A DNA stretch of 64,000 bases from Planctomycetota bacterium (GTDB lineage Bacteria; Planctomycetota; Uabimicrobiia; Uabimicrobiales; JABWCH01), in contig JAGOMP010000001.1 of assembly GCA_017993505.1 (NCBI GenBank), positions 53,059-117,058 on the forward strand, in the 5' to 3' direction. Shown piece after piece: positions 18,838 to 63,165 of the stretch; positions within the stretch are counted from its first letter, which is position 1; the number at the start of each line of letters is the position of its first letter. Position numbers and translations under genes: made by a program. The notes under the pieces were generated by a model. That model was not told where the DNA came from and ran no database searches. It was given only the letters and a program-made list of their open reading frames with translations.

Positions 18838-18877
18838 GTTATAAGTAGTTCAACAACTAGCAAAAAGGTAATAAAGT

Positions 18878-19504: not shown

Positions 19505-19520
19505 TAATTAGGATGCAATC

Positions 19521-23625: not shown

Positions 23626-23666
23626 TTGAAATATTTTGATTTTCATATTTTAGGTAGCTATATATT

Positions 23667-24401: not shown

Positions 24402-24447
24402 CATCAATTCAAAAGAAGGAGGGGGCATATTTATAGCCTAAAAACTC

Positions 24448-26256
24448 ATGAAATATATTCATTTCATTTATATCCTTTTCTTTCTATGTATTTTTACAAA
24501 TACAATGATACATAGTCAGGAAACGATGACAGATGCTGTTTTAAAATCATGGAAAACTATTCCAAAACATTCCGGATTACATGACTCGATAGCAGTAGAT
24601 ACAGCTAATATTTGGCTGGCTGTACTCAATTCAAATAATACTGTAGATATATATCTTCAAAACACAGGAGAAATTTGGAAACAAATTTCTATTCCAGCAT
24701 CTTCTACATTACAAATGTCTTGTGTTTGTTTTTCTCTAGATGGCAAATATATTTTAACTGGAACTTACACTGGAGAAATTTTAGTTTGGTCTTTACCAGA
24801 ATTACAACTTTTCAAAAAATTGGAAGGTCATACAAAAGTCATTCAATCCCTCCAATTCAGTCTTTCTGGTAAAATAATGGCAAGTGCTGGAGCAGATGCT
24901 AATATCATACTATGGACACTGCCAGATTTTACATTATTTCGCAAATTAGTTGGACATCATGACGAAGTAAAATATATTGAATTTTCAAAAAATGGGAAAC
25001 TCCTTTATAGTATTAGCAATGATAATACTATAAAATTTTGGCAAATAAACGAAAATGAAATATTTAATCGTCCTGTGTTAAAAGAAAAAGTCACAGAAAA
25101 ACCAACAGATATCCTTTATAAAGAAGCACGCCTAGCAAGAGTACAAGGTCAATTACAAAATGCTATGGCATTGTGTAAAGAAGTTTTACAAAGAGATCCT
25201 CTACATGCCGATACATTATATTTAATGGCAACTATTTATTATATGCAAAGTGAATCTGAGCCAAATAAAGATGAACAATATAAATTAGTCACTCTTACAT
25301 TAGAACATTTAAATAAATCATTTGAAAATGGTTTTACAGAATGGGCTAAATTTCAATTAGACCCAACATTCATAAAATTGCAAAAAGATATTCGCTTCCA
25401 AGATATTTTATCTCGGTACAAAGATAAATTTCCAGAAAAAGAGACAGAAGCTGTGGTACATGTACCACAAGAATTGGCATACTCTGAAGATTCTATCATT
25501 GCTCAACAAGAGAGTACAGGAGCTTCTAAGCCCATTTCATTTATCATTCAAGAAGAAAATGGTCTCTTAGAGGCAACAGCTATTGAAATTATGGTCAATG
25601 GGAAAGTGATTGAAATTAACGATAAATTTTTCCCTGGTTACAATTATGATATGATTATCAAATTCAAAGATTATGCTACAGTAAAGAAGAAAGTATACTT
25701 ACAAAATACAGGTGCAGAAACATTTACAATCCAAGCAAAATTTGATAAATTAAAAATATGCGAGTTTTTCACAAGAGATAAAGAAACCAATCTAGATGGT
25801 CTTATATATCCTTATAAATTTTATGTTGATGATATAGAAATTGAGGATCATTTAATTGAATATTATAAAAAAGGAGTGTTTTACTATTACACAATTCGAG
25901 TACCTTTAGACGCTAGTAAGTTTCGCGTATTGTCAGGTTATCTATATGAAGATCGCTATTTAGGTGAATTAAAAGACGGAATCACACGCTTAGAACGTCT
26001 AAGTGTTCCTTTACTCATGAAACATTTAGAACTATTAGCAAAAACAAGCAACTCAGGGTATAGAGTTTCTATTGTTGCCCTAGAAAAACTTGTAAAAAGT
26101 CGATATTGGAGCAACAAATTAAAATATGCACCTACTCAAGAAATTGGTGATTTTCTCATGCAACTAGAAACTTGGAATGTTATAAACGAACAAGATATTG
26201 AACGAGTTCGAATGATCGTTGATGCCATTGAAAGTCTAGTGGGTGGGTATTACTAA
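24448..26256 (+). CDS. secreted WD40-repeat plus TPR-like protein
   Basis: Signal peptide; WD40 units (LTGTYTGEILVWSL, ASAGADANIILWTL, SISNDNTIKFWQI) followed by TPR-like helices. Confidence 0.65.
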   Translation: MKYIHFIYILFFLCIFTNTMIHSQETMTDAVLKSWKTIPKHSGLHDSIAVDTANIWLAVLNSNNTVDIYLQNTGEIWKQISIPASSTLQMSCVCFSLDGKYILTGTYTGEILVWSLPELQLFKKLEGHTKVIQSLQFSLSGKIMASAGADANIILWTLPDFTLFRKLVGHHDEVKYIEFSKNGKLLYSISNDNTIKFWQINENEIFNRPVLKEKVTEKPTDILYKEARLARVQGQLQNAMALCKEVLQRDPLHADTLYLMATIYYMQSESEPNKDEQYKLVTLTLEHLNKSFENGFTEWAKFQLDPTFIKLQKDIRFQDILSRYKDKFPEKETEAVVHVPQELAYSEDSIIAQQESTGASKPISFIIQEENGLLEATAIEIMVNGKVIEINDKFFPGYNYDMIIKFKDYATVKKKVYLQNTGAETFTIQAKFDKLKICEFFTRDKETNLDGLIYPYKFYVDDIEIEDHLIEYYKKGVFYYYTIRVPLDASKFRVLSGYLYEDRYLGELKDGITRLERLSVPLLMKHLELLAKTSNSGYRVSIVALEKLVKSRYWSNKLKYAPTQEIGDFLMQLETWNVINEQDIERVRMIVDAIESLVGGYY

Positions 26257-44621: not shown

Positions 44622-44978
44622 ATGAATTTCTTTTTACAAGTAGCACCTCAAGCTGCCCCACAAGTTGAAAATCTTAGCACTGGACTCATGAGCATGCTTC
44701 CTATGCTTGCCATATTTTTCTTTTTTATGTGGTTCATAGTTATCCGACCACAAAAAAAACAAGAGAAAAAACACCAAGAAATGCTCAATGCCATAAAAAA
44801 AGGTGATAAAATTGTCACTATTGGTGGAATTATTGGAAAAGTAACAAAAGCTACAGAAGATAAAATTGAAATCCAAGTAGATGATACCACAAAAACAAAA
44901 ATTACATTTCAACGACGTGCTGTCCACAATGTATTAAACAAAAATGAAGATGCAGAAACAGAAGATAAAAAAGCATAA
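44622..44978 (+). CDS. yajC: preprotein translocase subunit YajC
   Basis: Single TM followed by RPQKKQEKKHQEMLNAIKKGDKIVTIGGIIGKV (YajC signature). AAGGAG RBS. Confidence 0.85.
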   Translation: MNFFLQVAPQAAPQVENLSTGLMSMLPMLAIFFFFMWFIVIRPQKKQEKKHQEMLNAIKKGDKIVTIGGIIGKVTKATEDKIEIQVDDTTKTKITFQRRAVHNVLNKNEDAETEDKKA

Positions 44979-45176
44979 AATACAAACATATAAAGCATAA
45001 AATATGAACATATAATCGATTGAACATAAAAAAACTCTAATTGAACCTAAAATGGTTCCATGGAAAAATCCATATAAAAAAATAACTCAAAAACTCTAAA
45101 TTAGAGAAATTTTTTAGTCACAATTTACTATTATATGTCATGATTTTAATAATATCAGAAAGGATTGTAACTTATT

Positions 45177-48100
45177 ATGAGAGCGGAACGTCACTATTCT
45201 CGACTCGGGCTCTTTATATTTATAATATTGTTAGTTGTATTTGGACTTTTACTTTCCTGTCCTCCTGAGCAACGACCTATTTTCAAAGAAGCCTTAAAAA
45301 ATTACAAAGTACACTACGGCCTAGATCTACAAGGCGGTTCTGAACTATTATATCAAATAGATCCGAATGAAATCGATGCCACACGTTCTATAAGTGATGT
45401 CATTGATGAAACTATTGGTGTGATTAGTCAACGTATTTTTGAATCTAACATTGTAAAAGATCCTAGAATTCAAAAAGAAGGTGAAAATCACATTATTGTC
45501 CAACTTCCTGGTTTAAATCAAGTTGAAACAAACAATATCAAAAAAGAAATTGAAACTTTAGGTAACCTAGAGTTCCGTCTTGTTGCCTCTAAAAACATGG
45601 GCGAAGAAATCGAAGAAGAAGTAGAACGTACAAAGTACGAACAAGCCCTTGGATCTGGTAGCACTCGCCTTAGTTACTATCAAAAACGTTTATTAGACAA
45701 AGGCTACAAATGGTTTCCATCTCGTGATGAAAAAGAACCTGCCCATTTATTATGGATAAAAGATGGATATGATTTCACTGGTAAAAAATTCCGTAATTTT
45801 TATCCTACATACCATGATGCTCGAAGAGCTATTGGTTTTGAACTTAAAGAAGAATACAAAACATATTTTGGCGATTTCACTGGGAAATATAAAAACGAAA
45901 GACTCGCCATTTTATTCAATAACAAAGTTGTTGCAGCTCCTAATATCAGCTCCCGAATTGAAGGCGTTGGTGTTATGGTTGGCTTCAATCCTAATGAACT
46001 CAATGATCTCATGAGAGTATTACGTTCTGGTTCTTTAGAAATTCAACCAGAACTTGTCAATGAAAATACAATTGGCCCAAGTTTAGGGCAAGATGCTATT
46101 AATTTAGGCATTCAAGCTGGTCTACTTGGTCTATTATTTGTTGTTATTTTCATGGCTGGATTTTATCATGGTGCTGGTGTTGTTGCTGTCATGGGAATGA
46201 TTCTCAACGTTATCATAGTTGGTAGCATCCTAGTAATTTGGGGCGAAACACTTACACTTCCTGGTATTGCTGGTTTCATCTTAACAGTCGGTATGTCTGT
46301 TGATGCCAATATTCTTATTTTTGAACGAATTCGAGATGAAAAATATAAATACATTACAGAAAATGGAAAACCTTATAAATTCACAAAACCAGAATTATAT
46401 GACATCGTCAACAATGGCTATAAACATGCATTTACAAGTATTTTTGATTCTAACGTAACTACTGTTTTAACAGCCATTATTCTTTATACATTTGGTTCTA
46501 GTGCTATCCAAGGATTTGCATTTACACTTGGTTGGGGTATTATAGCTAGTTTCTTTACAGCAATTGTAGTAACTCACTTAATTTTCGATCTTTCTATTCA
46601 GATTGGACTATTCCGTTCTTTCAGTATGATGAGATTGATTAAGGATCCAAAAATCAATTTCGTCAAATGGATGAGACCTATTATGATTCTTACTTGGTCT
46701 GTTATCATTCTCAGTATGGGTTGGTTCATCTATCGTGGCGAAAATAACTATGGTCTTGAATTAAAAGGTGGTATCTTAGCTCAAATGAGTTTAGAAAAAC
46801 CTCTTCAAAGTGAAGAAGTTCGTGAACGCCTAACAGAAGATTTCCAAGTGGAAGTTCAACACATAGTAGGCGATCGTGGAAGTGACGAAGAAGGCTGGTA
46901 TGAATTTTCTGTTCGTCTACCTAATCTGAACCAAGAAAAAATTGATGCTATCAACCAAGAAATTGAACAGATTGCAAATCAATTACGAACAAAAAATACA
47001 GCTCTTAAAGATAGAACTAGTACCTTAGTCAGAACAGAAGAAAACGAAAAACGTGAGAGACGTACCCTTCGAAGTCTCAAAGCAAAAGGTGCTTCTGCAG
47101 AAGAACAACAAGCCATTCAAGATACATTAGACAGATACTTACAAATCAAAAATGAAAACAAAGAAATAGTTACAAAACTTGGTAAAGAAATCGAAGAACT
47201 CACAGATAAACGTAGTGATTTAATGAGACAGAAAAATCATCTTTCTGGTATTGAAGAACTACGAAAAACTATTGAGAAAAAATTCAAAGATGAATTATCT
47301 CCTGAACCTTTTGGTGAAATAACAAGAGGCACAGGTAGATTTACAACTAGCCACATTGTTCCTGTTCGTTTCCGTACTCCTATGTCTAGTGAATTTGCTC
47401 AAACTACACTGGAAAAACACAAAGAACTTTTTAGCATTGTAGAAATTGGAAGTGAAAAATTCCGAGTTACTATTAAAGAAAAAGAAGACTCCCAAAAAAC
47501 AGCTGAAGAAATGCAAGAACTCGTAAAAAGACAACTTGATATTGCATCTCGTCTCGAAGCTTCTAATATAGACATCAAAACAGCTGACAATAAAACAACT
47601 CTTACTCTAACATTTGCAGACATAGTACCAACTTCTGCTGTGAAAAGAGCTATGGAACGTTGTAACTGGGAAAACTTCAATGTGCAAGCATTGGACGGTG
47701 AAAACACAGAACTTAAAAACTTTGCTTTTGTTGTTACATTATCAACAGAAAAATCTGGTCTTGAATTAGAAGCACAAGCTCAACTCATTCAAGAAAGAGT
47801 ACGCACAGCTTTTGCTGATGCTACTTACAATAAAGAAAAAGTTTTCTTTTCAGATCCATTCCCTAGATTTACACAAATTTCTGGCCTTGTTGCTAAAGAA
47901 CAAAAAACAAAAGCATACCAAGCAATTATTCTATCACTCATCGTTTTACTCATTTATATTGCAGTCCGATTCCCCAATGGCTGGATTTATGGTGTAGGCG
48001 CTATTGCAGCACTTACACACGACGTACTCATTAGTTTAGGCTGCATCGCTGTATTTGGATATTTAGGTTGGGTCAGCCTAGAAATTAACTTAACGACCAT

Positions 48101-48455
48101 TGCAGCATTGCTAACATTAGTAGGGTACTCTCTCAATGATACGATTGTTATCTATGATAGAATCAGAGAGAACAAAAAAAATTATGATGCAGAAATTTGG
48201 GCCAGAATGGATATTAAACATGTAGAAGCAGAATTCAACAAAGCTCTGAACCAAACACTTTCTAGAACATTGCTCACCTCTGTTACAACTATGATCGTGC
48301 TTGCATGCATCTTTTTCCTAAATTATGGAAAAGGTAGTGTAATGGAAGGATTCTCTTTTATTTTAATGATAGGTATTATTGCTGGTACGTACTCTTCTAT
48401 TTTCGTAGCAACTGCCATTGTGCTTGGTCTTGAAAAAAGAAATCGTGAACAATAA
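45177..48455 (+). CDS. secDF: fused protein-export membrane protein SecD-SecF with a long charged coiled-coil insertion
   Basis: SecD TM bundle (aa about 300-480), SecF TM bundle (aa about 900-1080), and periplasmic head motifs. Sits in the yajC-secDF operon. Confidence 0.85.
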   Translation: MRAERHYSRLGLFIFIILLVVFGLLLSCPPEQRPIFKEALKNYKVHYGLDLQGGSELLYQIDPNEIDATRSISDVIDETIGVISQRIFESNIVKDPRIQKEGENHIIVQLPGLNQVETNNIKKEIETLGNLEFRLVASKNMGEEIEEEVERTKYEQALGSGSTRLSYYQKRLLDKGYKWFPSRDEKEPAHLLWIKDGYDFTGKKFRNFYPTYHDARRAIGFELKEEYKTYFGDFTGKYKNERLAILFNNKVVAAPNISSRIEGVGVMVGFNPNELNDLMRVLRSGSLEIQPELVNENTIGPSLGQDAINLGIQAGLLGLLFVVIFMAGFYHGAGVVAVMGMILNVIIVGSILVIWGETLTLPGIAGFILTVGMSVDANILIFERIRDEKYKYITENGKPYKFTKPELYDIVNNGYKHAFTSIFDSNVTTVLTAIILYTFGSSAIQGFAFTLGWGIIASFFTAIVVTHLIFDLSIQIGLFRSFSMMRLIKDPKINFVKWMRPIMILTWSVIILSMGWFIYRGENNYGLELKGGILAQMSLEKPLQSEEVRERLTEDFQVEVQHIVGDRGSDEEGWYEFSVRLPNLNQEKIDAINQEIEQIANQLRTKNTALKDRTSTLVRTEENEKRERRTLRSLKAKGASAEEQQAIQDTLDRYLQIKNENKEIVTKLGKEIEELTDKRSDLMRQKNHLSGIEELRKTIEKKFKDELSPEPFGEITRGTGRFTTSHIVPVRFRTPMSSEFAQTTLEKHKELFSIVEIGSEKFRVTIKEKEDSQKTAEEMQELVKRQLDIASRLEASNIDIKTADNKTTLTLTFADIVPTSAVKRAMERCNWENFNVQALDGENTELKNFAFVVTLSTEKSGLELEAQAQLIQERVRTAFADATYNKEKVFFSDPFPRFTQISGLVAKEQKTKAYQAIILSLIVLLIYIAVRFPNGWIYGVGAIAALTHDVLISLGCIAVFGYLGWVSLEINLTTIAALLTLVGYSLNDTIVIYDRIRENKKNYDAEIWARMDIKHVEAEFNKALNQTLSRTLLTSVTTMIVLACIFFLNYGKGSVMEGFSFILMIGIIAGTYSSIFVATAIVLGLEKRNREQ

Positions 48456-48541: not shown

Positions 48542-49090
48542 ATGGATAAAAAAAAGATAGCGCTTCTTTCTTTATTACTATTGTCCATTTTTATTTTACA
48601 AATACAATTTCGTGCAAAAAAACAACAAAAAACAAATATAGAAAACATAGAAACAACTACACAAACAGAACCCCAACAAGTACAACAAAACAACACTCCA
48701 CAAATCAATGAAATTCCACCTCCTCTTTCCTTTCCTTTGCCCGACACAGCAAACAATAAAACAGAACAAAAAACAACACAAACAAATCAAGAAAAAACTC
48801 TACAAGTTTCTGAACAAACAAATCAAGAAAAAACTCTACAAGTTTCTGAACAATCAAATCAAGAAAAAACCAATATACCACCAGAAACGTCCAAAACTTT
48901 TTCTTATAAAGTACAATCAGGCGATAGCCTGTGGAAAATTGCAAGAATACAGTATAAACTTTCTAATAATAGCGAAATCAATCATGTTGTTCAATACATA
49001 GAAAAACAAGGCAAATTTAAAATATTACGCATTGGCGAAACAATACAATTACCCTCAAAAACAGAAATCGAAAACATCCTTAAAAAATAG
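48542..49090 (+). CDS. secreted LysM-domain protein with a Q/T/N-rich repetitive linker
   Basis: Signal peptide, repeats TNQEKTLQVSEQ, and a C-terminal LysM (YKVQSGDSLWKIARIQY...). Confidence 0.7.
   Translation: MDKKKIALLSLLLLSIFILQIQFRAKKQQKTNIENIETTTQTEPQQVQQNNTPQINEIPPPLSFPLPDTANNKTEQKTTQTNQEKTLQVSEQTNQEKTLQVSEQSNQEKTNIPPETSKTFSYKVQSGDSLWKIARIQYKLSNNSEINHVVQYIEKQGKFKILRIGETIQLPSKTEIENILKK
48782..48875. repeat. 36-bp in-frame tandem repeat x about 2.5 in the LysM gene
   Basis: acaaatcaagaaaaaactctacaagtttctgaacaa is repeated. Confidence 0.85.
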
Positions 49091-49105: not shown

Positions 49106-49738
49106 ATGAGCGAACCCAATATTGAAATTCGTACATTTACATACATTGATGTATTACAACCACAACTTGCAGCATTTATTGCCACCATTTGTCAAGGATA
49201 TTTACCATTAGAATCCCAAGCTGCACTCATCGTAGAGGTTGCACCTGGAATTGCCATTAACAGAATTACAGATATTGCTATGAAACGTGCCCAAGTCTAT
49301 CCAGGAATGCAAATTGTCGAACGTTCCTATGGAATGTTAGAACTCCATACCTTTGACCAAGGAGCTATGCGTGCAGCTGGAGAAGCTATTCTAGAATATG
49401 TACATGGTGATGAAGAAAGTAGAATCAAACCAAAAATTTATTCTTCTGAAATCATTACAGGAATAGAAGGTCACCAAGCTATGATCATCAATAGAATGCG
49501 CCATGGTCAATTTCTATTACAAGGAGAAACTTTATACATCCTAGAAGTACAGCCAGCAGGCTATGCTGCAATAGCAGCTAATGAAGCAGAAAAAGCAGCA
49601 AATATCAATTTACTAGAAATGCGTGCGTTCGGTGCTTTTGGACGATTATATTTAGGTGGGAAAGAAGCTGAAATTCAAGAAGCTGTCAAAGCCATCGAAT
49701 CTAGTTTAAATAACATGAGCGGTCGTCCCAATCCATAA
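49106..49738 (+). CDS. tandem BMC-domain protein (BMC-T-like microcompartment shell protein) with an about 60-aa N-terminal extension
   Basis: Two non-permuted BMC-like blocks: LIVEVAPGIAINRITDIAMKRAQV...GAMRAAGEAI and YILEVQPAGYAAIAANEAEKAANINLLEMR...GGKEAEIQEAVKAIESS. Compare the PduA block [22 protein letters not shown]...GDVGAVKAATDAG. Confidence 0.6.
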   Translation: MSEPNIEIRTFTYIDVLQPQLAAFIATICQGYLPLESQAALIVEVAPGIAINRITDIAMKRAQVYPGMQIVERSYGMLELHTFDQGAMRAAGEAILEYVHGDEESRIKPKIYSSEIITGIEGHQAMIINRMRHGQFLLQGETLYILEVQPAGYAAIAANEAEKAANINLLEMRAFGAFGRLYLGGKEAEIQEAVKAIESSLNNMSGRPNP

Positions 49739-49772
49739 TTACATAAACACAATAAAGTAGAAAGGCGTATTT

Positions 49773-51254
49773 GTGGACAAAGATTTAGAATCCATTCAAC
49801 TCACAAGAGAATTAATCGCAAAAGCAAAAACAGCACAACAAAAGCTAGAACGCTACACACAAGACCAAGTGGATCACATTGTTGGACTTTTAGCTCAACA
49901 TGGGTATAGAGCTGCACAACAACTTGCAGAATTAGCATACCAAGAAACAGGTATGGGGCGTGTGGAAAGTAAATTGGAAAAAAATATCTTTGCCACACGG
50001 ACACTTTATTACCATATCAAAGATATACAAACAGTAGGTATCTTAACTCAGGATCTTCATCACCAAATTTATGAAGTGGCTACTCCTATGGGAATTGTTG
50101 CTGGCATCATTCCTGTCACAAACCCAACTTCCACATCTCTGTTCAAAATTATCTCTGCTTTAAAAGCACGATGTTGTATTATTTTATCTCCTCATCCTAA
50201 AGCCAAAAATTGTATTCAAAAAACAGTCAACATTATGCAAAACGCATTACAGTCTATTGGTGAACCAGAAGAATTTATCGGTTGTTTACCCATTCCTACC
50301 ATGGAAGCAACACACACTCTCATGCAACATCCTGACATTGCGGTAATTCTTGCTACTGGTGGTGGAGGACTTGTCAAAGCTGCATATTCTTCTGGCAAAC
50401 CAGCGATAGGAGTAGGTCCAGGAAACTGCCCAGCATATATTGAAGCTAGTGCAGACATTCCTCATGCAATTCGTTGTCTCATTATTAGCCAAAGCTTTGA
50501 TTGGGGGACTATTTGTGCTTCAGAGCAATCGGTTATTATTGAAAATAGCATATTAGAACAGTGCTTACAAGAATTTCAACGACAAGAAGGACATATTTGT
50601 ACACCAGAAGAAATAAAAAAATTAGAAGATCTCATGCCAAACGATGGTTCTATACCTCCAGCTTTAGTAGGGAAATCACCTTTTCACATTGCTAAAATTG
50701 CAGGATTTACAGTACCAGAAACTACCAAAGTTTTAATTGCACAACAAACAGGTGTAGGAAATGAATATCCTCTTTCTAGAGAAAAACTTTCTCCTATTTT
50801 AGCTATGTACATTGTGAAAAATCCAGAAGAAGCATATCAACTCTGTCATCAACTCCTAGTATACGGTGGAATTGGACATTCTGTAGCCATACATTCCAAA
50901 AATCAAAAAATCATTCAAAACTTTGCATTACAAAACAAAGCGTCAAGAATTTTAGTCAATGTTCCTTCCTCACAAGGTGGGGTAGGATATGCAACTACAT
51001 TATCCCCCTCATTAACCTTAGGTTGTGGTTCACCAGGTGGTAATATTACTTCTGATAATATCACTTGTAAACATTTACTTAATATTAAACGTATTGCTTT
51101 TGCACACAATGACTTTTTCCCAGATGTACCTGCACCTAAAATTAATATGTTCAATATAAGCAAGCAAGAAAAAAAATATCGCCGAGATCCTTTTGAAGAT
51201 CTCCCTACACCGAATCGAGCTTTTTATGTTGGACCACATAACAATGTAAAATAA
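49773..51254 (+). CDS. CoA-acylating aldehyde dehydrogenase (EutE/PduP family); GTG start
   Basis: [20 protein letters not shown], catalytic Cys in [10 protein letters not shown], and a GGGG NAD loop. An about 40-aa C-terminal extension is present. Confidence 0.8.
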
Positions 51255-51665
51255 AAAAATAAGGAGAAAAAATAATGGCTAGACAACAAACAGTCTTTGA
51301 AGACTCTCCTCCAAAAAATAAATCAACTTCTGAAGCGTTAGAGATAAAAGAAGAACTTTCTCAAAAAACACAGAGCAAAACAAAAAAAAATTACAGAAGA
51401 ATCACCTAAAAAAATAAAAATTAATCAAGAAAAAAATTTAAAAAATAAAACATTTAAAAAAAATCATAAAGAAGATAAAAAAGGGGGAGTAGGATATTCA
51501 GCAGAAAAATATAATAAAATAAATTCTAAAACAAATAATAAAGAAATAAAAGATAAAAATAATAATAGCAAAAAAGAATACCAAAAAGCAATTTCCAAAA
51601 CAACTCCCCAACAAGAAATAAAAGGAAAATATAGAGAGAAAAAACAAGAATCTATAGCTTACGAA

Positions 51666-52688
51666 ATGCCAAAACAGATTTTTAAACAACAAGGACAATA
51701 TAAACATTCCTCATATAAACACAAACAAGATAATGTTGAAAAACGCCCTTATTCAAAAAACAAACAAGGAGGTTTCAACGAAAACCTTAAACCCACCGTC
51801 AAAAATCATTCTCAAAAAAAATTGGATAACAATCGAGTACCTAAACAAAGGAAAAAACAGCCTCGTAAAAGAAAACGCCAATCTGAAGAAGCAATCGAAA
51901 AATTTAAATTAAGTCATTCTATACCAGTACAAGAACTTGCCAAACAACATAATATTCACTGTTTGATTGCAGCCAAACTATATAAAAATGAAATTACATT
52001 AGAGCAAGCATTACAAGCAGAACAAGAACGCCTTAATTTATTCGCCAAAGTTCAAAAATTAATTGCTCAATATCCAGAAATTAATGTATCCTTGGGTTAT
52101 CATATTGTTCGTCAATTTTCCACTATGGAAGAATATTGGGCCCATAAAAAAGAAGTGGAAAAAAGAAAAGAAGAAAAAGATTTATTGAAAAAAATAAAAA
52201 TGCAAAAGGATGCAATGCAGAATAAAGCATTTTTATGGCTTGAAGAATGTATTAAATCTAAGGAACAAATTCAACTTGCATTATATGGTAAAAAAGAATT
52301 TCTATATGGAGTTTTACAAGATTTCACACCTTATGTATTTAAATTAGTAGTCCCAAAAGGAATTCAAAAAATTCATCGTCTTTCTATGAAATACTTTTAC
52401 TTTAAAAAAGATGAAGAATTTATCAAAAAATGGATTTTAATTGATAAAACTATTAAAGCTAAAAAACTCCATGCAGAACGAGATAAAAATAAACGTTTCC
52501 AATTTCCAGAAAATATATTAGTAGAAGGAAACGAAATTATGTTAGGACTTCACGGAGGAGAAATGATCCGTGGAAAAGTTCTATGGTTCACACCTTATGA
52601 TATATTATTGCAAACTAGCAAAACCATAATATGGATTTTCCGACATGCAATAATTGAATGTGCTATTATTCGTAAAGCGAAAAAATGA
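51666..52688 (+). CDS. hypothetical basic (Lys-rich) protein; probably the C-terminal part of a longer gene interrupted at an A9 tract (see findings)
   Basis: 340 aa ORF. Its frame is open upstream to 51348 and overlaps a Met-initiated ORF at 51275..51409 in another frame. Confidence 0.55.
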   Translation: MPKQIFKQQGQYKHSSYKHKQDNVEKRPYSKNKQGGFNENLKPTVKNHSQKKLDNNRVPKQRKKQPRKRKRQSEEAIEKFKLSHSIPVQELAKQHNIHCLIAAKLYKNEITLEQALQAEQERLNLFAKVQKLIAQYPEINVSLGYHIVRQFSTMEEYWAHKKEVEKRKEEKDLLKKIKMQKDAMQNKAFLWLEECIKSKEQIQLALYGKKEFLYGVLQDFTPYVFKLVVPKGIQKIHRLSMKYFYFKKDEEFIKKWILIDKTIKAKKLHAERDKNKRFQFPENILVEGNEIMLGLHGGEMIRGKVLWFTPYDILLQTSKTIIWIFRHAIIECAIIRKAKK

Positions 52689-54424
52689 ACAAAAAATACC
52701 GTTGGCTCGTAAAAGCAACAAATTATGAAGCAATTCAACAATTACAAAAAGACTTCCTATTTACCGAAGAATTTTGCAAAATCCTAGCTTCACGAGGACT
52801 CATCCATAAAGAAGAAGTCCATAGTTTTTTAAATCCCAGTTGGGATAACATACACCATTATAATAAATTCAATCAAATGGAACAAGCAGTGGCTCGTATA
52901 GCAACTGCTATTCAAAATAAAGAAAAAATTGTAATCTATGGTGATTATGACGCCGATGGAATTACAGCTACCGCTCTTTTATACCAGTGTTTCTGCTTAT
53001 TTGATGCTAATATCTATTACTATATTCCAGAACGAAATGAAGGATATGGAGTAAATAAAACAGCTATAAAAAAAATACACCAAAAAGGAATTACATTGAT
53101 TATCACTGTAGATTGTGGGATCAGTAATTACGTAGAAGTAGAATATGCTAAAACACTAGGTATAGATATGATTATTACAGACCACCATGAATTGGGAGAA
53201 ATTATTCCCAAAGCTGTTGCTGTGATTAATCCTAAGGATAAAAATAGTGGCTATCCTTTTAAGGGAATTGCAGGTGTAGGAGTTGCTTTTAAACTAGCTT
53301 GGGCTATTTGTCAAAGATTTTCGCCAAATACAAAATATGTACGCCCTCATTTAAAAGATTTTTTGATGAATGCCTTGGGATTAGTTGCTTTAGGAAGTGT
53401 AGCAGACGTTGCTCCTCTCCATGATGAAAATAGAATTCTTATAAAATATGGTCTAAAAGTACTTGAACAAAGTAAAAATATAGGTATTAAAGCATTAAAA
53501 GACATATCGCGACTTTCTAATACTTCAGAACTTTCCACTGAAGACATTGGTTTTCGCATAGGTCCTAGAATCAATGCAGTAGGAAGAATTTCATCTGCAA
53601 AACAATGCGTAGAACTTCTGACTACCAATAATATAACAAAAGCCCAAGAACTAGCAAAATCACTAGAATACACCAATCAAAAAAGAAGAAGTATACAAAC
53701 AAAAATCCAACAACAAGCCCAAGAAATCATTCAAAAAAAAGAACTCTACAAAAAAAAAGTACTTGTTGTAGGATATGATAATTGGTCGGTAGGAGTAATT
53801 GGCATTGTGGCAGGTCGACTATTGAATGAATACTATCGACCTGTTTTCGTGATTTCTTTTGAAGATAATATAGGAAAAGGCTCTGCACGATCTATCAAAG
53901 GATTTCATTTATTTCATGCATTGCAACAATCAGAACAATATTTACATAGCTATGGCGGTCATGAACTTGCAGCAGGATTTCAAATCGAAAAAAACAAACT
54001 CGAAGACTTTGATAAATATTTAAACAAACTTGCAGATCAACTGCTAAAACCAGAAGACTTTCAACCAAGTTTAGAAATTGACACCATTATACCATTGTAT
54101 GCTATAACCTGGAATCTCATACATCAAATAGAAAAAATGAAACCTTTTGGTGAAGGTAATCCTGAACCTATTTTACTAACAGATAATGTAGAGATCATAA
54201 AAAATCCACCGCCACAAAGATATGGAAATAAAGGTGAACATCTATCGTTTCGAGTCCGCCAAGAAAATTCTGTTTTCCCTTGCATTTATTTTCAAAATGG
54301 CGATCTATGCGACTATACAAAAAAGGCACGTACATGTAGCATTGTTTATAGTCTTAAAAAAAATGAATGGAGAGATCAACTTTCCATACAACTTGACATA
54401 AAAGATATACAATTTCATTTATAA
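52685..54424 (+). CDS. recJ: single-stranded-DNA-specific exonuclease RecJ
   Basis: DHH motifs IVIYGDYDADGITA, DCGIS and ITDHHE; DHHA1 region GGHELAAGF. Confidence 0.9.
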   Translation: MNKKYRWLVKATNYEAIQQLQKDFLFTEEFCKILASRGLIHKEEVHSFLNPSWDNIHHYNKFNQMEQAVARIATAIQNKEKIVIYGDYDADGITATALLYQCFCLFDANIYYYIPERNEGYGVNKTAIKKIHQKGITLIITVDCGISNYVEVEYAKTLGIDMIITDHHELGEIIPKAVAVINPKDKNSGYPFKGIAGVGVAFKLAWAICQRFSPNTKYVRPHLKDFLMNALGLVALGSVADVAPLHDENRILIKYGLKVLEQSKNIGIKALKDISRLSNTSELSTEDIGFRIGPRINAVGRISSAKQCVELLTTNNITKAQELAKSLEYTNQKRRSIQTKIQQQAQEIIQKKELYKKKVLVVGYDNWSVGVIGIVAGRLLNEYYRPVFVISFEDNIGKGSARSIKGFHLFHALQQSEQYLHSYGGHELAAGFQIEKNKLEDFDKYLNKLADQLLKPEDFQPSLEIDTIIPLYAITWNLIHQIEKMKPFGEGNPEPILLTDNVEIIKNPPPQRYGNKGEHLSFRVRQENSVFPCIYFQNGDLCDYTKKARTCSIVYSLKKNEWRDQLSIQLDIKDIQFHL

Positions 54425-54578
54425 AATATATATAATACTCACACAATACAGTATATTTTCATAAAATATAAGGAATAGAAACTTACTCTTATTCCTTATA
54501 TATTTTTATAATAACCACTTACTCTTATTCCTTATAAACATATGCACATAAAAAATTTTGTTGTCCAAGGGGGATTAT

Positions 54579-55160
54579 ATGAATCAAAAAATTTTACTTA
54601 TTGCACTCCTATTCCTTGCGATCACAGTGCAATCTCAAGAAACATGGAAATTACAAATCAATAGTTGCATTGTCAACACTCTCAATCCAAGAGGTAAAAA
54701 ATGGGATAAAGATTTAAAAGGTGGCAAACCAGATCTACAAATTATTATTACCATTACAAATGAAAATGGTCAATCTAAACCTTTTAAAAGCAAAAAATTT
54801 CCCAATCAATATGAAATTAGAGAACTCATTACCACAGACTTAGTTGTCAAAGAAGGAGATACAATTTTTATTAAAATCATTGATGTAGATGTAATCGCCT
54901 ATGACATCATTGGAGCAGTCACGTATGTTGCACAGCCAGAAGATTTTTATATTGGAAATTTAAAAAAATTACAATTCAATTCAGTACAACAACTTGAATT
55001 CTACTTTTCTCCTTCTAATAACATTTATGAAGAACTCGCCATTCTTCGAGAAGCATACAATAAGCTCCTTAAAGAAAAAGAAAAACTAGAAAAAGAAGTA
55101 CAAAAAAAGCATACATTTAAAGAACTAGATAATATCAAGGATTATAATAAAGACAATTAA
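54579..55160 (+). CDS. secreted protein with a C2-like (Ca2+/lipid-binding beta-sandwich) domain; paralog of the next gene
   Basis: Signal peptide, then KLQINSCIV...DLKGGKPDLQIIITI...IKIIDVDVIAYDIIGAVTYV, a pattern resembling the C2 'KSDPYVKV ... DxDxxxxDDxIG' signature. Confidence 0.55.
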   Translation: MNQKILLIALLFLAITVQSQETWKLQINSCIVNTLNPRGKKWDKDLKGGKPDLQIIITITNENGQSKPFKSKKFPNQYEIRELITTDLVVKEGDTIFIKIIDVDVIAYDIIGAVTYVAQPEDFYIGNLKKLQFNSVQQLEFYFSPSNNIYEELAILREAYNKLLKEKEKLEKEVQKKHTFKELDNIKDYNKDN

Positions 55161-55184: not shown

Positions 55185-56987
55185 ATGAAGCCATTCCTTT
55201 TCATCATTTTATTTTTCAGTTTAATTTCCTCAGTACATAGTCAGTGGACTCTCAAAATTACAAACTGTATAGTCAAAGAAAAAAAGGCAAACAATAAAAA
55301 TTGGGACAATGACTTAAAAGGTGGAAAACCAGATATCAGGATCACCATTACAAAAATAGAAAATGGAAAAACCATTGCTACCTTTAGAACTAAGAAATAC
55401 GCAGATACTTTTGAAATCAAAGAACTTATCAATACTACTATCCAAGTACGAGAAAATGATAAAATATCTTTTAAAGTCGAAGATATGGACGCCATGGGAC
55501 GTCATGATTTGATTGGAACTACTACGTATTTAATCACATCCGACAACTTAACCATAGGAAATTTACAGAACATTGCATTTCATTCTGTAGACGTATTACA
55601 ATTTTATTTTACTCCCTTTGACACAATCCAAAAAGAATTCATAGCATTACAAGAACTTTACGAAAAAATAAATCAAAGCAAAACCTCCATACAAAAAGAA
55701 AAAGAAAAATTTATTGAAGATAAGAAGCACTTTCAAAACAAAGTAAATCAATGGATAACAGAACGAACAGATGAAGAAAATCGACTCCATAAAGATAAAG
55801 AAATTTGGGAACAAGAAAAAAAACGAATACAAAAAGAAAAACAAAGGTTATTAGAAGTTGCAGATCAATTAGCTCAACAACAACAAATATTAGAAGAAGA
55901 TCAAAAACAATTTCTTGAAATCCAAGAAAAAGCAAAACTAGAAAAATCTGAAGATACAGACAATGACTTTGATGACGATATTATAGATGACTTTGACGAC
56001 GAAGATGCAATAGATGAAAATGCTCTACAAAAAGAACAAGCTCAACTCAAACAAGAACAAGATCAACTTAAACAAGAACAAGCTCAATTTAAACAAGAAC
56101 AAGCTAGATTCCAAAGAGAAATAGAAAATAGCCAAAGAAACATAAAATACGAACAAGAACGACTTCAAAGAGAAAAAACTAACCAAATGAAATTATTGGA
56201 AGTACAAAAAGAAAACTTACAAAAAGAAAAAGATAGACTCCAAGCAGATAAAGAAAAATATAACAAAGAACGGTTAGAATTCATCAAACAAAAAGGGGAA
56301 TGGAACGTAGAACGCATTCAAAAAGAAAGTGAACTACGGATCGCAAGTAGCCAAACAAAACTATTTGAAGTACAAAAAGAAAATTTTAACAAAGAAAAAG
56401 AAAGATTCCAAGAAGATAGAGAAAGATTCAACAAAGAACGGTTAGAATTCATCAAACAAAAAGGGGAATGGACTTCTGAACGCATAAAAAAAGAAAGTGA
56501 ACTTAACATTCAAAAATCAAAATACGAAAACGAATATAGACAAAAGCAAAGAGAAATCGAACGACTTCAAAAGTCTATAGAAGTACAACAATCTCAAAAA
56601 AATACGCAAGAATCATTAAATAAACTACAAGAAGAAAACTCATGCTTACAAATGAGACTACAAGAAGCGAACCAAAAAATTAAAGAACTTTCTGAGTCTA
56701 TAGAGTCTCAACAAAGCACAAATATAGAAAAAGAAGTAATTGATGAAGAAGCAGACGATGAAAACGCAGATGATGAAAACGCAGACGATGAAAACGCAGT
56801 CGATGATGTAAAAGAAGAAACAGTGGAAGCAACAGAAGCAAAAATTCAAATACAAAAAAATATACAAGAAACACAAAAAAATATACAGAAAACTGTTACC
56901 AATGTACGTTCTTCTTTATATTCAACTCTAAAAGAAGTTCCAGGAATCGGAGGTGCTATCGAAGTATACCAAAAGCTTGTTCATTAG
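55185..56987 (+). CDS. secreted C2-like-domain protein with a long repetitive coiled coil and acidic repeats; paralog of 54579..55160
   Basis: N-terminal 150 aa align to the upstream gene (DLKGGKPDIRITIT, VEDMDAMGRHDLIG). Then about 400 aa of K/E/Q-rich heptads with a 56-aa internal duplication and DDENA x3. Confidence 0.6.
   Translation: MKPFLFIILFFSLISSVHSQWTLKITNCIVKEKKANNKNWDNDLKGGKPDIRITITKIENGKTIATFRTKKYADTFEIKELINTTIQVRENDKISFKVEDMDAMGRHDLIGTTTYLITSDNLTIGNLQNIAFHSVDVLQFYFTPFDTIQKEFIALQELYEKINQSKTSIQKEKEKFIEDKKHFQNKVNQWITERTDEENRLHKDKEIWEQEKKRIQKEKQRLLEVADQLAQQQQILEEDQKQFLEIQEKAKLEKSEDTDNDFDDDIIDDFDDEDAIDENALQKEQAQLKQEQDQLKQEQAQFKQEQARFQREIENSQRNIKYEQERLQREKTNQMKLLEVQKENLQKEKDRLQADKEKYNKERLEFIKQKGEWNVERIQKESELRIASSQTKLFEVQKENFNKEKERFQEDRERFNKERLEFIKQKGEWTSERIKKESELNIQKSKYENEYRQKQREIERLQKSIEVQQSQKNTQESLNKLQEENSCLQMRLQEANQKIKELSESIESQQSTNIEKEVIDEEADDENADDENADDENAVDDVKEETVEATEAKIQIQKNIQETQKNIQKTVTNVRSSLYSTLKEVPGIGGAIEVYQKLVH
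56262..56471. repeat. 168-bp-period internal direct repeat in the coiled-coil gene (aacaaagaacggttagaattcatcaaacaaaaaggggaatgg at 56262 and 56430)
   Basis: An identical 42-bp core is repeated 168 bp apart and encodes KERLEFIKQKGEW twice. Confidence 0.8.
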
Positions 56988-61779: not shown

Positions 61780-63165
61780 TTGGAGAAAGGATTTAAGAAA
61801 GGATTTATGAGAAAATTGAAATCGTTTTCTGGTGGCAATCATCCACCAGAATGTAAAAAGCTTACATTAGATAAAGCTTTAATTTCTTTTCCTATACCTA
61901 AAAAATTGTATTGCCTTTTATCACAACATATTGGTGTACCTGCTCGTGCTATTGTGAAAAAAGGAGACTATGTAAAACGTGGGCAAATGATTGCAGAAGC
62001 AACTGAGTTTGTATCCTGTCCAGTCCATGCACCAACATCAGGCACTGTTTTAGGCATTGAACCTACACCACATCCATCAGGGAAAATGTGTGATGCCATT
62101 GTGATTGAGTCGGATGGAAAAGACGTCTGTCAAGCGGGATATGGAGATCGTCGTGCAAAAATTCAAGAACTTTCCAGCGAGGAAATATTGAAAATTATCC
62201 AAGATTCTGGCATTGTAGGTATGGGAGGTGCTGCTTTTCCTACACATGTAAAATTTTCTCCTCCTAAAGAGAAAAAAATAGATACATTTATTATAAATGC
62301 ATCTGAATGTGAACCTTATTTAACTTGCGACCATCGTCTTATATTACAATATGCGCGAGAAATTTTAAAGGGTGCAAAATTATTACAAAAAGTTTTAGAC
62401 GTACCAGATATTCATATTGGTATTGAAGCTAATAAATATGATGCTTATGATCTGATTCAAAAAGAAATTGGCAGTAAAAAGAACATTCATACACATTTAT
62501 TAAAAGTTAAATATCCACAAGGGGCAGAAAAACAACTCATCAAGGCAGTTTTAAATCGCACTGTTCCTGCTGGTGGTCTTCCTATGGATGTGGGTGTAAT
62601 TGTTCAAAATGTTGCATCTGTATATGCTACATATCGTGCTGTTTACCAACAAGAACCTCTTACTGAAAGATATGTTACAGTTACAGGTTCTGGCATTGAG
62701 CATCCGCAAGATTTTCTTGTACGACTTGGCACACCTATTCGCAATCTTTTAGAACACGTTGGTCTAAAAGATTCAGCAACAAAAATTATCCTCGGCGGTC
62801 CTATGATGGGTCTTGCACAATATTCACTAGATGTTCCAGTCACTAAAGGAACAAATGGCATAGTAGTTTTAACAGAACCTGTTAATAGTGAATTTGAACA
62901 TTGCATTCGTTGTGGTGACTGTGTGCGTCATTGTCCTATGTTTTTATTACCCTATAAATTATCGATTGCTATGGAAAAAGGACGGCTAGATTTAGCAGAA
63001 AAATTAGATATTAAAGATTGCATGGAATGTGGCGTTTGCTCTTATGTTTGTCCAGCAAATCGTCCTATCGTTCACTTCATTAGAATGGGAAAAGCAGAAA
63101 TCCTCAAAAAGAACGCAGAAATCCTCAAAAAGAAACAAGCTAGAAATAAACAGGCTAACGAATAA
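61780..63165 (+). CDS. rnfC: Rnf complex subunit C
   Basis: FSGGNHPP, GMGGAAFPTHVK and two CxxCxxCxxxCP ferredoxin motifs. An alternative start lies at 61807. Confidence 0.85.
   Translation: MEKGFKKGFMRKLKSFSGGNHPPECKKLTLDKALISFPIPKKLYCLLSQHIGVPARAIVKKGDYVKRGQMIAEATEFVSCPVHAPTSGTVLGIEPTPHPSGKMCDAIVIESDGKDVCQAGYGDRRAKIQELSSEEILKIIQDSGIVGMGGAAFPTHVKFSPPKEKKIDTFIINASECEPYLTCDHRLILQYAREILKGAKLLQKVLDVPDIHIGIEANKYDAYDLIQKEIGSKKNIHTHLLKVKYPQGAEKQLIKAVLNRTVPAGGLPMDVGVIVQNVASVYATYRAVYQQEPLTERYVTVTGSGIEHPQDFLVRLGTPIRNLLEHVGLKDSATKIILGGPMMGLAQYSLDVPVTKGTNGIVVLTEPVNSEFEHCIRCGDCVRHCPMFLLPYKLSIAMEKGRLDLAEKLDIKDCMECGVCSYVCPANRPIVHFIRMGKAEILKKNAEILKKKQARNKQANE

What the first reader, a model, noticed from the sequence alone, without database searches (positions are those of the whole stretch)
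49106..51254. Orphan two-gene microcompartment-like unit: tandem-BMC-domain protein plus CoA-acylating aldehyde dehydrogenase
The 210-aa ORF at 49106 contains two consecutive blocks matching the BMC-domain pattern, making it a BMC-T-like pseudohexamer candidate with a 60-aa N-terminal extension containing a TICQGY Cys. The second block (AIAANEAEKAANINLL...GGKEAEIQEAVKA) follows the PduA pattern of an alpha helix with AADxxxKAAxV then GDVxAVxxA. Eight nucleotides downstream is an EutE/PduP-type acylating aldehyde dehydrogenase ([12 protein letters not shown], catalytic ICASE) with an extra about 40-aa C-terminal tail that could act as an encapsulation peptide. No BMC-H hexamer or BMC-P vertex gene is present in the window. 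The flanks are housekeeping (secDF/LysM upstream, recJ downstream). A minimal shell-plus-signature-enzyme pair in an AT-rich, apparently host-associated genome is unusual. It could be a satellite locus or a non-canonical use of a BMC-fold protein.
Basis: partly seen in the sequence, partly recalled or inferred. Interest (0 to 1): 0.72.

Follow-up and report, generated by a model that had tools for sequence, protein, structure and literature searches.

The report
Microcompartment shell gene beside aldehyde dehydrogenase
Two adjacent genes in an uncultured planctomycete encode a gated microcompartment shell tile and a CoA-acylating aldehyde dehydrogenase; they most likely are one detached piece of a bacterial microcompartment whose other genes lie elsewhere, an arrangement already catalogued in this phylum.

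Summary
Both ORFs are real. ORF1 (49106-49738) is a full-length, double-stacking-type tandem-BMC shell protein (BMC-Tdp). It is 58-62% identical to the solved Haliangium ochraceum BMC-T3 from end to end, and all gate and pore residues are conserved. There is no 60-aa N-terminal extension. ORF2 (49773-51254) is a "type I" acylating aldehyde dehydrogenase (TIGR02518/AdhE-N-like), not the EutE/PduP type. It has a 47-aa C-terminal tail.

The genome is an uncultured, anaerobic-digester Planctomycetota related to Ca. Uabimicrobium; nothing shows it to be host-associated. The block YajC-SecDF-LysM-Tdp-ALDH-RecJ is syntenic across this lineage, including a closed Uabimicrobium genome.

The nearest outgroup homologues of both genes occur in a single planctomycete MAG. 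There the Tdp stands alone, and the ALDH sits in a distant BMC-H/Tdp/BMC-T cluster. This matches the fragmented "FRAG5-like" organisation in the 2021 BMC catalog.

The best reading is therefore a satellite fragment of a dispersed metabolosome (about 0.65). One feature is unusual: in this lineage the canonical amphipathic encapsulation helix of type I ALDHs is replaced by a conserved, proline-rich, non-helical tail (DPFxDLP...YYVGPHNNPNI).

Whether BMC-H and BMC-P genes exist elsewhere in this genome could not be tested. Interest is moderate to low.

The parts
49106..49738 (+). Gene for a BMC-Tdp shell protein (210 aa), HO-BMC-T3/CcmP-like. It has two permuted BMC domains: residues ~6-100 (nt ~49121-49405) and ~109-203 (nt ~49430-49714).
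   Evidence: PF00936 plus PF27545. CcmP NCBIfam model E 2e-81, below cutoff. PDB 5V76 E 1e-78 over the full length. AF2 pLDDT 93.5; Foldseek TM 0.94/0.96 to 5V76.
49319..49324 (+). Codons for Glu72-Arg73, the pore-gating pair (equivalent to CcmP Glu69/Arg70). R9, R130 and R180 complete the five conserved 'air-lock' pore residues.
   Evidence: These residues are invariant in alignments A3 and A4. Residue roles are taken from PMC13316943. The equivalence was inferred from a constant +48 numbering offset.
49739..49772 (+). 34-nt intergenic spacer with a GAAAGG ribosome-binding site at 49760-49765. No terminator-like site lies in the spacer.
   Evidence: Sequence read directly. The terminator scan found no site in the spacers between genes from yajC to recJ.
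49773..51110 (+). Catalytic core (residues 1-446) of a type I CoA-acylating aldehyde dehydrogenase, GTG start. Cys248 (nt 50514-50516), Glu337 and His369 are invariant.
   Evidence: TIGR02518 584 bits (cutoff 620); AdhE N-domain 555 bits; PRK15398 only 252 bits. PDB 5J78 E 1e-141 and 3K9D E 1e-136. Invariant residues. AF2 core pLDDT mostly above 90.
51111..51254 (+). C-terminal tail (residues 447-493) plus stop codon. It is proline-rich and predicted non-helical, with three conserved blocks: [WF]F.D...P, DPF.DLP, and [RK].Y[YF][VI]GP[HY]NNPNI. It sits where other type I BMC AldDhs carry an amphipathic encapsulation helix.
   Evidence: Alignment of 15 clade tails. Canonical EP helices are seen in outgroups P0253, P0271, P0214 and P0218. 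AF2 predicts coil with block-mean pLDDT about 34-77. No proline-free amphipathic window was found.
48542..49090 (+). Upstream LysM-domain gene, 15 nt from the Tdp start. It is part of the conserved syntenic block and contains a 36-bp tandem repeat at 48758-48870.
   Evidence: PF01476. Synteny in L088, L089 and L090. Repeat found.
44622..48455 (+). yajC and the fused secDF, the upstream housekeeping anchor of the conserved block.
   Evidence: Pfam annotations. The same order occurs in L087 (Ca. Uabimicrobium), L088 and L090.
51276..54424 (+). Downstream Hfq-like-C-terminus gene (470 aa in other assemblies; split in the window by an A9-versus-A8 homopolymer near 51385), followed by recJ.

Best explanation
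The pair is a satellite fragment of a dispersed (FRAG-type) aldehyde-oxidising bacterial microcompartment in a Uabimicrobiia-related planctomycete.

What is shown:
- ORF1 is a canonical BMC-Tdp.
- ORF2 is a catalytically intact type I acylating ALDH.
- The two genes are adjacent, co-directional and inherited together across the lineage.

What is inferred:
- The Tdp forms trimers that stack face to face and tile into a shell built from BMC-H and BMC-P proteins encoded elsewhere.
- Its Glu72/Arg73-gated pore (about 14 A) lets bulky anions or cofactors (sugar phosphates, CoA, NAD) cross the shell.
- Inside the shell the ALDH converts a toxic aldehyde, most likely acetaldehyde, plus CoA and NAD+ into acyl-CoA and NADH.
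- Co-transcription matches the supply of the gated tile to that of the core enzyme.
- The ALDH is recruited through its C-terminal tail. In this lineage the tail is a disordered, proline-rich linear motif rather than the usual amphipathic helix.
For: - Tdp identity is established over its full length, with all gate and pore residues and the AANEAEKAAN edge motif conserved. Its solved homologue HO-3341 (BMC-T3; the Haliangium gene numbers used in the PDB entry names suggest a gene far from the main HO shell-gene locus) is described in the literature as a component of the HO shell (PDB 5V76, 5V74).
- In an NJ tree the window clade nests inside the T3-like group, and every fetched member of that group outside the window clade has no detected shell gene near it. 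The T2-like group sits inside full loci.
- MAG GCA_973473515.1 carries a lone T3-like Tdp (P0024, 67% identical to ours) on one contig. On another contig it carries BMC(193 aa)-ALDH(P0182, 53% identical to ours)-BMC-H-Tdp-BMC-T. A second MAG shows the same ALDH-H-Tdp-T cluster.
- Sutter et al. 2021 (PMC8217296) report that type I AldDh carry C-terminal EPs. They describe FRAG5 (Planctomycetes) as having an AldDh with a C-terminal EP, two CcmP-like Tdp, BMC-H, BMC-Ts and a BMC-P triplet, dispersed in the genome. CcmP-like/HoT3-like Tdp are listed as satellites.
- The pair is adjacent in every relative examined. Gaps are 11-34 nt in four lineages and about 290 nt in L007. Relatives include the closed genome of Ca. 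Uabimicrobium sp. HlEnr_7.
- Tdp is 78% identical between the window organism and Uabimicrobium, while the ALDH is only 52%. This is the strong constraint expected of a tiling shell protein.
Against: - No BMC-H or BMC-P gene was seen in about 84 kb around the pair, nor in the 10 kb either side of it in four relatives.
- The ALDH tail lacks the canonical amphipathic helix that normally mediates encapsulation.
- No other protein carrying the tail motif was found.
- No signature enzyme, PTAC or alcohol dehydrogenase lies in the window.
- The ALDH scores below the TIGR02518 equivalog cutoff.
Confidence: 0.65

Rival explanations
1. Shell-less minimal module. The lineage has lost BMC-H and BMC-P. 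The stacked Tdp hexamer-of-trimers, with its internal chamber and gated pores, works directly with the ALDH, which docks through the new C-terminal motif. Possible roles are a small cofactor or aldehyde-trapping device, or a regulator of the enzyme.
For: - The canonical EP helix is replaced, exactly in the clade where the ALDH became adjacent to a T3-like Tdp, by a conserved non-helical motif.
- No other shell gene appears in about 84 kb here, nor in the 10 kb either side of the pair in four relatives.
- The pair sits in a deeply conserved housekeeping block rather than a mobile BMC locus.
Against: - No BMC-T is known to function without BMC-H.
- The Tdp keeps the edge motifs used for tiling and is more conserved than the enzyme.
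- Lone T3-like Tdp genes are the norm in lineages that do have shells.
- Absence of shell genes in the genome was not tested.
Confidence: 0.15
2. Adjacency without a functional link. The Tdp is a satellite tile for a microcompartment that does not contain this enzyme. The ALDH is an ordinary cytosolic acetaldehyde/acetyl-CoA enzyme of anaerobic fermentation. The two stay together only because the whole yajC-recJ block is syntenic.
For: - The tail has no recognisable encapsulation helix.
- The whole block, not just the pair, is conserved.
- Close solved homologues include non-BMC enzymes (5J78; AdhE).
- The window encodes Rnf subunits, consistent with an anaerobic fermenter.
Against: - The nearest outgroup ALDHs lie inside shell-gene clusters and carry EP-like helices, so the enzyme's ancestry is BMC-associated.
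- The spacing is operon-like, 11-34 nt in four lineages.
- The tail is conserved in three blocks over deep divergence, implying a binding partner.
Confidence: 0.15
3. Decaying remnant. The pair is a relic of a lost microcompartment and has no current shell-related function.
For: No shell partners were seen locally.
Against: - Both ORFs are intact in all assemblies.
- Catalytic and gating residues are invariant.
- Tdp is 77-79% identical across the lineage.
Confidence: 0.03

Closest known systems
Haliangium ochraceum BMC-T3 (HO-3341, PDB 5V76) and cyanobacterial CcmP (PDB 4HT5, 5LSR)
   Same: - Same length and architecture: two permuted BMC domains.
- 58-62% (T3) and 53% (CcmP) identity; TM 0.94-0.97.
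- The Glu-Arg gate and the other pore arginines are present.
- The fetched T3-like homologues are likewise encoded with no other shell gene nearby. That T3 and CcmP are themselves encoded away from their main shell loci comes from the literature and my own knowledge; it was not checked here.
   Different: - Here the gene is fused into an apparent operon with an aldehyde dehydrogenase.
- No partner BMC-H or BMC-P has been demonstrated in the genome.
- A clade-typical Cys29 replaces the Ser/Ala found in those proteins.
FRAG5 / FRAG8 fragmented BMC gene sets of Planctomycetes (Sutter et al. 2021, PMC8217296)
   Same: - Same phylum.
- CcmP-like Tdp encoded in separate pieces.
- AldDh of the C-terminally extended (type I) kind.
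- Pieces embedded among unrelated genes.
   Different: - In FRAG5-like loci seen here (L091, L093) the ALDH sits next to BMC-H, a T2-like Tdp and another BMC-T, and carries an EP-like helix.
- In the window lineage it sits next to the T3-like Tdp alone, and the helix is replaced by a proline-rich motif.
- The SPU signature enzymes and the BMC-P triplet were not found locally.
EUT2-type (type I, IPR013357/TIGR02518) acetaldehyde dehydrogenases, e.g. Listeria Lmo1179 (PDB 3K9D) and Geobacillus ADA (PDB 5J78)
   Same: - About 50% identity over the whole core.
- Same catalytic Cys/Glu/His.
- The extension lies at the C-terminus.
   Different: - It scores below the equivalog cutoff (584 against 620 bits).
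- The tail is not an amphipathic helix.
- The genomic partner is a Tdp rather than a eut operon.
EutE/PduP (type II, IPR012408, PRK15398) BMC aldehyde dehydrogenases
   Same: The same overall reaction class and Pfam family (PF00171).
   Different: - Only 252 bits against a cutoff of 403.
- Those enzymes carry N-terminal EPs.
- Class A full loci carry this type at about 30% identity to ours.

Membership tests
BMC-Tdp (CsoS1D/CcmP/HO-T2,T3 double-stacking trimers) | Two tandem, circularly permuted BMC (PF00936-fold) domains in about 205-215 aa | tested here: met
   PF27545 plus PF00936. End-to-end alignment to 5V76. AF2 pLDDT 93.5 with a repeated beta-alpha-beta-alpha-beta-beta-alpha pattern. 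Foldseek TM 0.94/0.96.
BMC-Tdp (CsoS1D/CcmP/HO-T2,T3 double-stacking trimers) | Conserved Glu-Arg pore gate and accompanying pore arginines | tested here: met
   E72/R73, R9, R130 and R180 are invariant. Residue roles come from PMC13316943. Positional equivalence was inferred from the numbering offset.
BMC-Tdp (CsoS1D/CcmP/HO-T2,T3 double-stacking trimers) | Trimerisation and face-to-face stacking of two trimers | not testable with these tools
   No multimer prediction was available. Inferred only from 58-62% identity to stacked homologues.
BMC-Tdp (CsoS1D/CcmP/HO-T2,T3 double-stacking trimers) | Incorporation into a shell made with BMC-H and BMC-P of the same genome | not testable with these tools
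No BMC-H or BMC-P was found in about 84 kb. A search for a second, T2-like Tdp was inconclusive.
beta-carboxysome CcmP (NCBIfam NF053796 equivalog) | Score at or above the curated cutoff (340 bits) | tested here: not met
   272.5 bits. The organism is a non-photosynthetic planctomycete. The protein is CcmP-like, not CcmP.
Type I BMC aldehyde dehydrogenase (IPR013357/TIGR02518) | Best match to TIGR02518 with the catalytic Cys/Glu/His intact | tested here: inconclusive
   TIGR02518 is the best model, but 584 bits is below the 620 cutoff. C248, E337 and H369 are invariant.
Type I BMC aldehyde dehydrogenase (IPR013357/TIGR02518) | C-terminal amphipathic-helix encapsulation peptide | tested here: not met
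   The tail has 7 Pro in 52 residues examined and no Pro-free amphipathic window. AF2 predicts coil with low pLDDT. Outgroups show the classic helix.
Type II BMC aldehyde dehydrogenase (EutE/PduP, PRK15398) | Score at or above the curated cutoff (403 bits); N-terminal EP | tested here: not met
   252 bits. There is no N-terminal extension: the alignment to solved homologues starts at residue 2.
Satellite locus of a BMC (definition of Sutter et al. 2021) | Contains shell protein(s), with or without enzymes, and lies distal from a main locus in the same genome | tested here: inconclusive
   Shell protein plus enzyme: met. No other shell gene within about 49 kb upstream and about 13 kb downstream, plus 10 kb beyond each window end. 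Existence of a main locus, or of other fragments, was not testable.
FRAG5 fragmented BMC (Planctomycetes) | BMC-P triplet, two BMC-H, BMC-Ts, two CcmP-like Tdp, SPU enzymes (PF01791/PF02502), and AldDh with a C-terminal EP | tested here: inconclusive
   The phylum, one CcmP-like Tdp and a C-terminally extended type I AldDh are present. The others are absent from the window and untestable genome-wide. The outgroup MAG GCA_973473515.1 shows the fragmented pattern.

The most novel reading that the evidence does not exclude
The Uabimicrobiia-like planctomycetes have lost the conventional shell. They use a stacked BMC-Tdp 'nano-chamber' directly with an acylating aldehyde dehydrogenase, which docks through a new proline-rich C-terminal motif (DPFxDLP...YYVGPHNNPNI) that replaced the ancestral encapsulation helix. 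This would be a shell-less, two-component descendant of a microcompartment. A weaker version is that the shell persists but the motif is a previously unrecognised, non-helical cargo-targeting signal that binds the Tdp.
Probability: 0.15. Interest if true: 0.75.

Novelty: new variant of a known kind. Interest (0 to 1): 0.33.

Why it matters
Fragmented (FRAG) microcompartments are the least understood class in the BMC catalog. Their enzymes, substrates and targeting signals are largely unknown.

This lineage offers a handle on them. A gated Tdp tile and the core aldehyde dehydrogenase are held together in one apparent operon across a whole planctomycete class, which includes the cultivable phagocytosis-like predator Ca. 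Uabimicrobium. The enzyme also carries a conserved tail that is not a classical encapsulation peptide. If the tail proves to be a shell-binding motif, it would add a new kind of cargo-targeting signal for BMC engineering. If the genomes lack BMC-H and BMC-P, it would be the first stand-alone use of a BMC-T.

As it stands, both genes are already annotated in public MAGs, and the arrangement fits a known category.

Tried and rejected
- Other shell genes in the window. phmmer and tblastn with PduA, EutM, CcmK2, EutN and CcmL found nothing. Pfam over essentially all window genes gave only housekeeping functions.
- Walking 10 kb beyond each window end found no BMC genes.
- Is the tail a targeting peptide shared with other cargo? 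A regex over all fetched loci hit only the ALDHs. A profile of 15 tails against 1.84 billion representatives returned only two spurious repeat proteins. There is no support for this, but sensitivity for a 60-residue motif is low.
- Looking for a second, in-locus Tdp in the same lineage. The T2-like Tdp of L093 served as the last protein-database query. The top 120 hits were all at least 66% identical planctomycete sequences, with no Uabimicrobium and no matching contig lengths, so the result is inconclusive.
- A BMC-H query or a DNA-pattern scan of metagenomes was considered and dropped. BMC-H is too conserved and abundant for a capped, unfiltered hit list to find one organism.
- A conserved enzyme partner next to lone Tdp genes in other phyla: none is universal. 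Only a subset has thiolase plus 3-hydroxyacyl-CoA dehydrogenase.
- The promoter and terminator scan gave chance-level counts, so operon structure was not resolved.
- The literature holds no statement on BMC genes in Uabimicrobium. A search for 'Hoch_3341' found nothing.
- Horizontal transfer was rejected. GC content is like the flanks and the synteny is deep.
Full report
**Observation**

The two ORFs exist as described: 49106-49738 (+, 210 aa, ATG start) and 49773-51254 (+, 493 aa, GTG start). The spacer is 34 nt, not 8, and carries a GAAAGG ribosome-binding site. The upstream LysM gene ends 15 nt before ORF1, and the next gene starts 21 nt after ORF2. No terminator-like site lies in any spacer between genes from yajC to recJ, but promoter and terminator counts are at chance level, so co-transcription is plausible and unproven.

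**ORF1**

- Pfam sees a BMC domain only in residues 145-201 (E 1e-7).
- The N-terminal half matches the precomputed family PF27545 (CsoS1D_N).
- The NCBIfam CcmP model aligns residues 6-208 (E 2e-81, 272 bits, below the 340-bit equivalog cutoff).
- Against solved structures the best match is Haliangium ochraceum BMC-T HO-3341 (5V76), with query 7-209 aligned to chain 2-204 (E 1e-78). HO-5816, CcmP, CsoS1D and the RMM trimers follow.
- An AF2 model (pLDDT 93.5) has the same strand-helix pattern twice, at residues 7-99 and 110-202. It superposes on 5V76 with TM 0.94/0.96 and rmsd 1.2 A.

The protein is therefore a complete BMC-Tdp. The gating pair (E72/R73, equivalent to CcmP E69/R70) and three further pore arginines (R9, R130, R180) are invariant, as is the AANEAEKAAN edge motif (residue roles from PMC13316943). 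The Cys in TICQGY is common in the clade but not invariant.

**ORF2**

- The best models are TIGR02518, acetylating acetaldehyde dehydrogenase (584 bits, cutoff 620), and the AdhE N-domain (555 bits). The EutE/PduP-like PRK15398 scores only 252 bits.
- Solved relatives are Geobacillus ADA (5J78, E 1e-141), Listeria Lmo1179 (3K9D) and AdhE.
- Cys248, Glu337 and His369 are invariant among 24 homologues.
- In the terms of Sutter et al. 2021 this is a 'type I' AldDh (IPR013357). That is the group whose BMC members carry a C-terminal encapsulation peptide, unlike type II (EutE/PduP), which has an N-terminal one.

The core ends near residue 446, leaving a 47-residue tail.

**The tail**

Outgroup type I enzymes end in textbook amphipathic helices, for example EEELVKKIVKEVLKKIS and EELDIIIDKILEKL. 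The window enzyme and about 20 close homologues instead share a proline-rich tail with three conserved blocks: [WF]F.D...P, DPF.DLP, and [RK].Y[YF][VI]GP[HY]NNPNI. The window ends ...YVGPHNNVK.

AF2 predicts coil with low confidence for residues 443-493. The best hydrophobic-moment window contains three prolines. So the tail occupies the EP position but is not a canonical EP. The motif was found on no other protein, either in the fetched loci or in a profile search of 1.84 billion representatives, which gave two spurious repeat proteins.

**Organism and synteny**

Identical proteins are annotated in several NCBI MAGs as Planctomycetota ('BMC domain-containing protein', 'aldehyde dehydrogenase family protein'). 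They also occur on long contigs from anaerobic-digester metagenomes. GC is about 31% throughout the window.

The order YajC-SecDF-LysM-Tdp-ALDH-(Hfq-like)-RecJ recurs in relatives (L088, L089, L090). YajC-SecDF-x-Tdp-ALDH recurs in the closed 9.3-Mb genome of Ca. Uabimicrobium sp. HlEnr_7. Tdp is 77-79% identical across these relatives, while the ALDH is 52-65%. The pair is thus vertically inherited in a Uabimicrobiia-like lineage. Nothing indicates host association or recent transfer.

**Comparative context**

Eighty loci with Tdp homologues from reference genomes fall into three groups:
- Full loci of the form Tdp-H-P-ALDH(type II, about 30% identity)-H-H-P-P, in Planctomycetota, Verrucomicrobiota, Kiritimatiellia, Anaerolineae and Acidimicrobiia.
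- 47 loci in which no other shell gene was detected in the stretch held (up to 10 kb each side; some contigs were much shorter), in Myxococcota, Bradymonadia, Sericytochromatia and some Planctomycetota.
- The window type, with a type I ALDH adjacent (one of the 80, L007).

In an NJ tree the lone Tdps cluster with HO-T3, and the window clade nests among them. The in-locus Tdps cluster with HO-T2. Absence of neighbouring shell genes is therefore the rule for this subfamily and does not make this locus exceptional.

**Key link**

The closest outgroup ALDHs (P0182 at 53%, P0191 at 50%) lie in clusters of the form ALDH-BMC-H-Tdp(T2-like)-BMC-T, with no BMC-P within 10 kb. They carry EP-like helices after long linkers.

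One of those MAGs (GCA_973473515.1) also carries, on another contig and among housekeeping genes, a lone T3-like Tdp (P0024). P0024 is among the closest non-clade relatives of the window Tdp, at 67% identity. So the nearest outgroups of both window genes belong to one fragmented BMC gene set in a single genome.

This matches the catalog's FRAG5 description: Planctomycetes, AldDh with a C-terminal EP, two CcmP-like Tdp, BMC-H, BMC-Ts and a BMC-P triplet, dispersed in the genome. It also matches the 'ccmPlike-HoT3like' satellite Tdps listed there.

**Interpretation**

Most likely (about 0.65) the pair is a satellite fragment of a dispersed aldehyde-oxidising metabolosome. The Tdp supplies a gated large pore in a shell whose BMC-H and BMC-P genes lie elsewhere. 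The ALDH is the core aldehyde-detoxifying enzyme.

- Shown: protein identities, conservation, adjacency and ancestry.
- Inferred: shell incorporation, encapsulation of the ALDH, the role of the tail, and the substrate (probably acetaldehyde; an SPU-like deoxyribose-phosphate route is a speculation based on the FRAG5 description).

Rivals are a shell-less Tdp-ALDH module (0.15), coincidental adjacency with a cytosolic ALDH (0.15), and a decaying relic (0.03).

**Limits**

I could not test whether BMC-H or BMC-P genes exist elsewhere in this genome or in Uabimicrobium. About 84 kb around the pair has none. The last protein-database search, with a T2-like Tdp, was saturated by closer planctomycete sequences.

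**Verdict**

The locus fits a known category. Two features are noteworthy: the lineage-wide Tdp-ALDH coupling, and the replacement of the encapsulation helix by a conserved non-helical motif. Novelty: new variant of a known kind. Interest: 0.33.

Noticed in passing
window 51276-52688 (homopolymer near 51385): The gene after the ALDH is 470 aa in six other assemblies of the same species. In the window an A9 run (A8 elsewhere) shifts the frame, leaving a 340-aa ORF from 51666. This is probably a homopolymer sequencing error or a strain variant. The C-terminus has weak Hfq-like Pfam hits.
   Followed up: yes
window 48758-48870 (inside the LysM gene 48542-49090): A 36-bp tandem repeat (about 3 copies) encodes TNQEKTLQVSEQ. 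The product is 170, 182 or 194 aa in different assemblies, which implies copy-number variation between strains.
   Followed up: partly
window 14383-17664 (-): The NAD-dependent DNA ligase is unusually long (1093 aa). It has an unassigned stretch of about 265 aa between the adenylation domain (148-383) and the OB domain (649-730).
   Followed up: no
window 18196-20345 and 61780-63165 (continuing beyond the window end): The Rnf complex genes are split into two groups about 41 kb apart: RnfE/A/B-like in one, and RnfC followed by RnfD/G-like genes in the other. This is consistent with an anaerobic, ferredoxin-dependent metabolism.
   Followed up: no
window 54558-55160 and 55185-56987: Two tandem paralogues share a secreted N-terminal domain of about 150 aa with no Pfam match. 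The second continues into a long coiled-coil with a 168-bp repeat (plus 21- and 24-bp repeats) and an acidic 15-bp repeat (DENAD).
   Followed up: no
loci L008-L055 (lone Tdp genes): T3-like Tdp genes with no shell neighbours are concentrated in predatory or biomass-degrading lineages (Myxococcota, Bradymonadia, Uabimicrobiia-like). They also occur in non-photosynthetic Sericytochromatia (L019, L035, L042, L048). In a subset of the high-GC loci, thiolase (8 loci) and 3-hydroxyacyl-CoA dehydrogenase (6 loci) lie immediately downstream.
   Followed up: partly
loci L091 (11933-13594) and L093 (9423-13341): GC-rich planctomycete MAGs carry compact ALDH-BMC-H-Tdp-BMC-T clusters. Their type I ALDHs have C-terminal linkers of 100-170 aa. 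Some end in a small Cys-rich motif (CPIGGCxHGGxCPIGY) after the EP-like helix.
   Followed up: partly
window 21622-26256: A eukaryote-like Ser/Thr kinase with an FHA domain and a WD40 beta-propeller protein lie close together, as is typical of planctomycete genomes.
   Followed up: no
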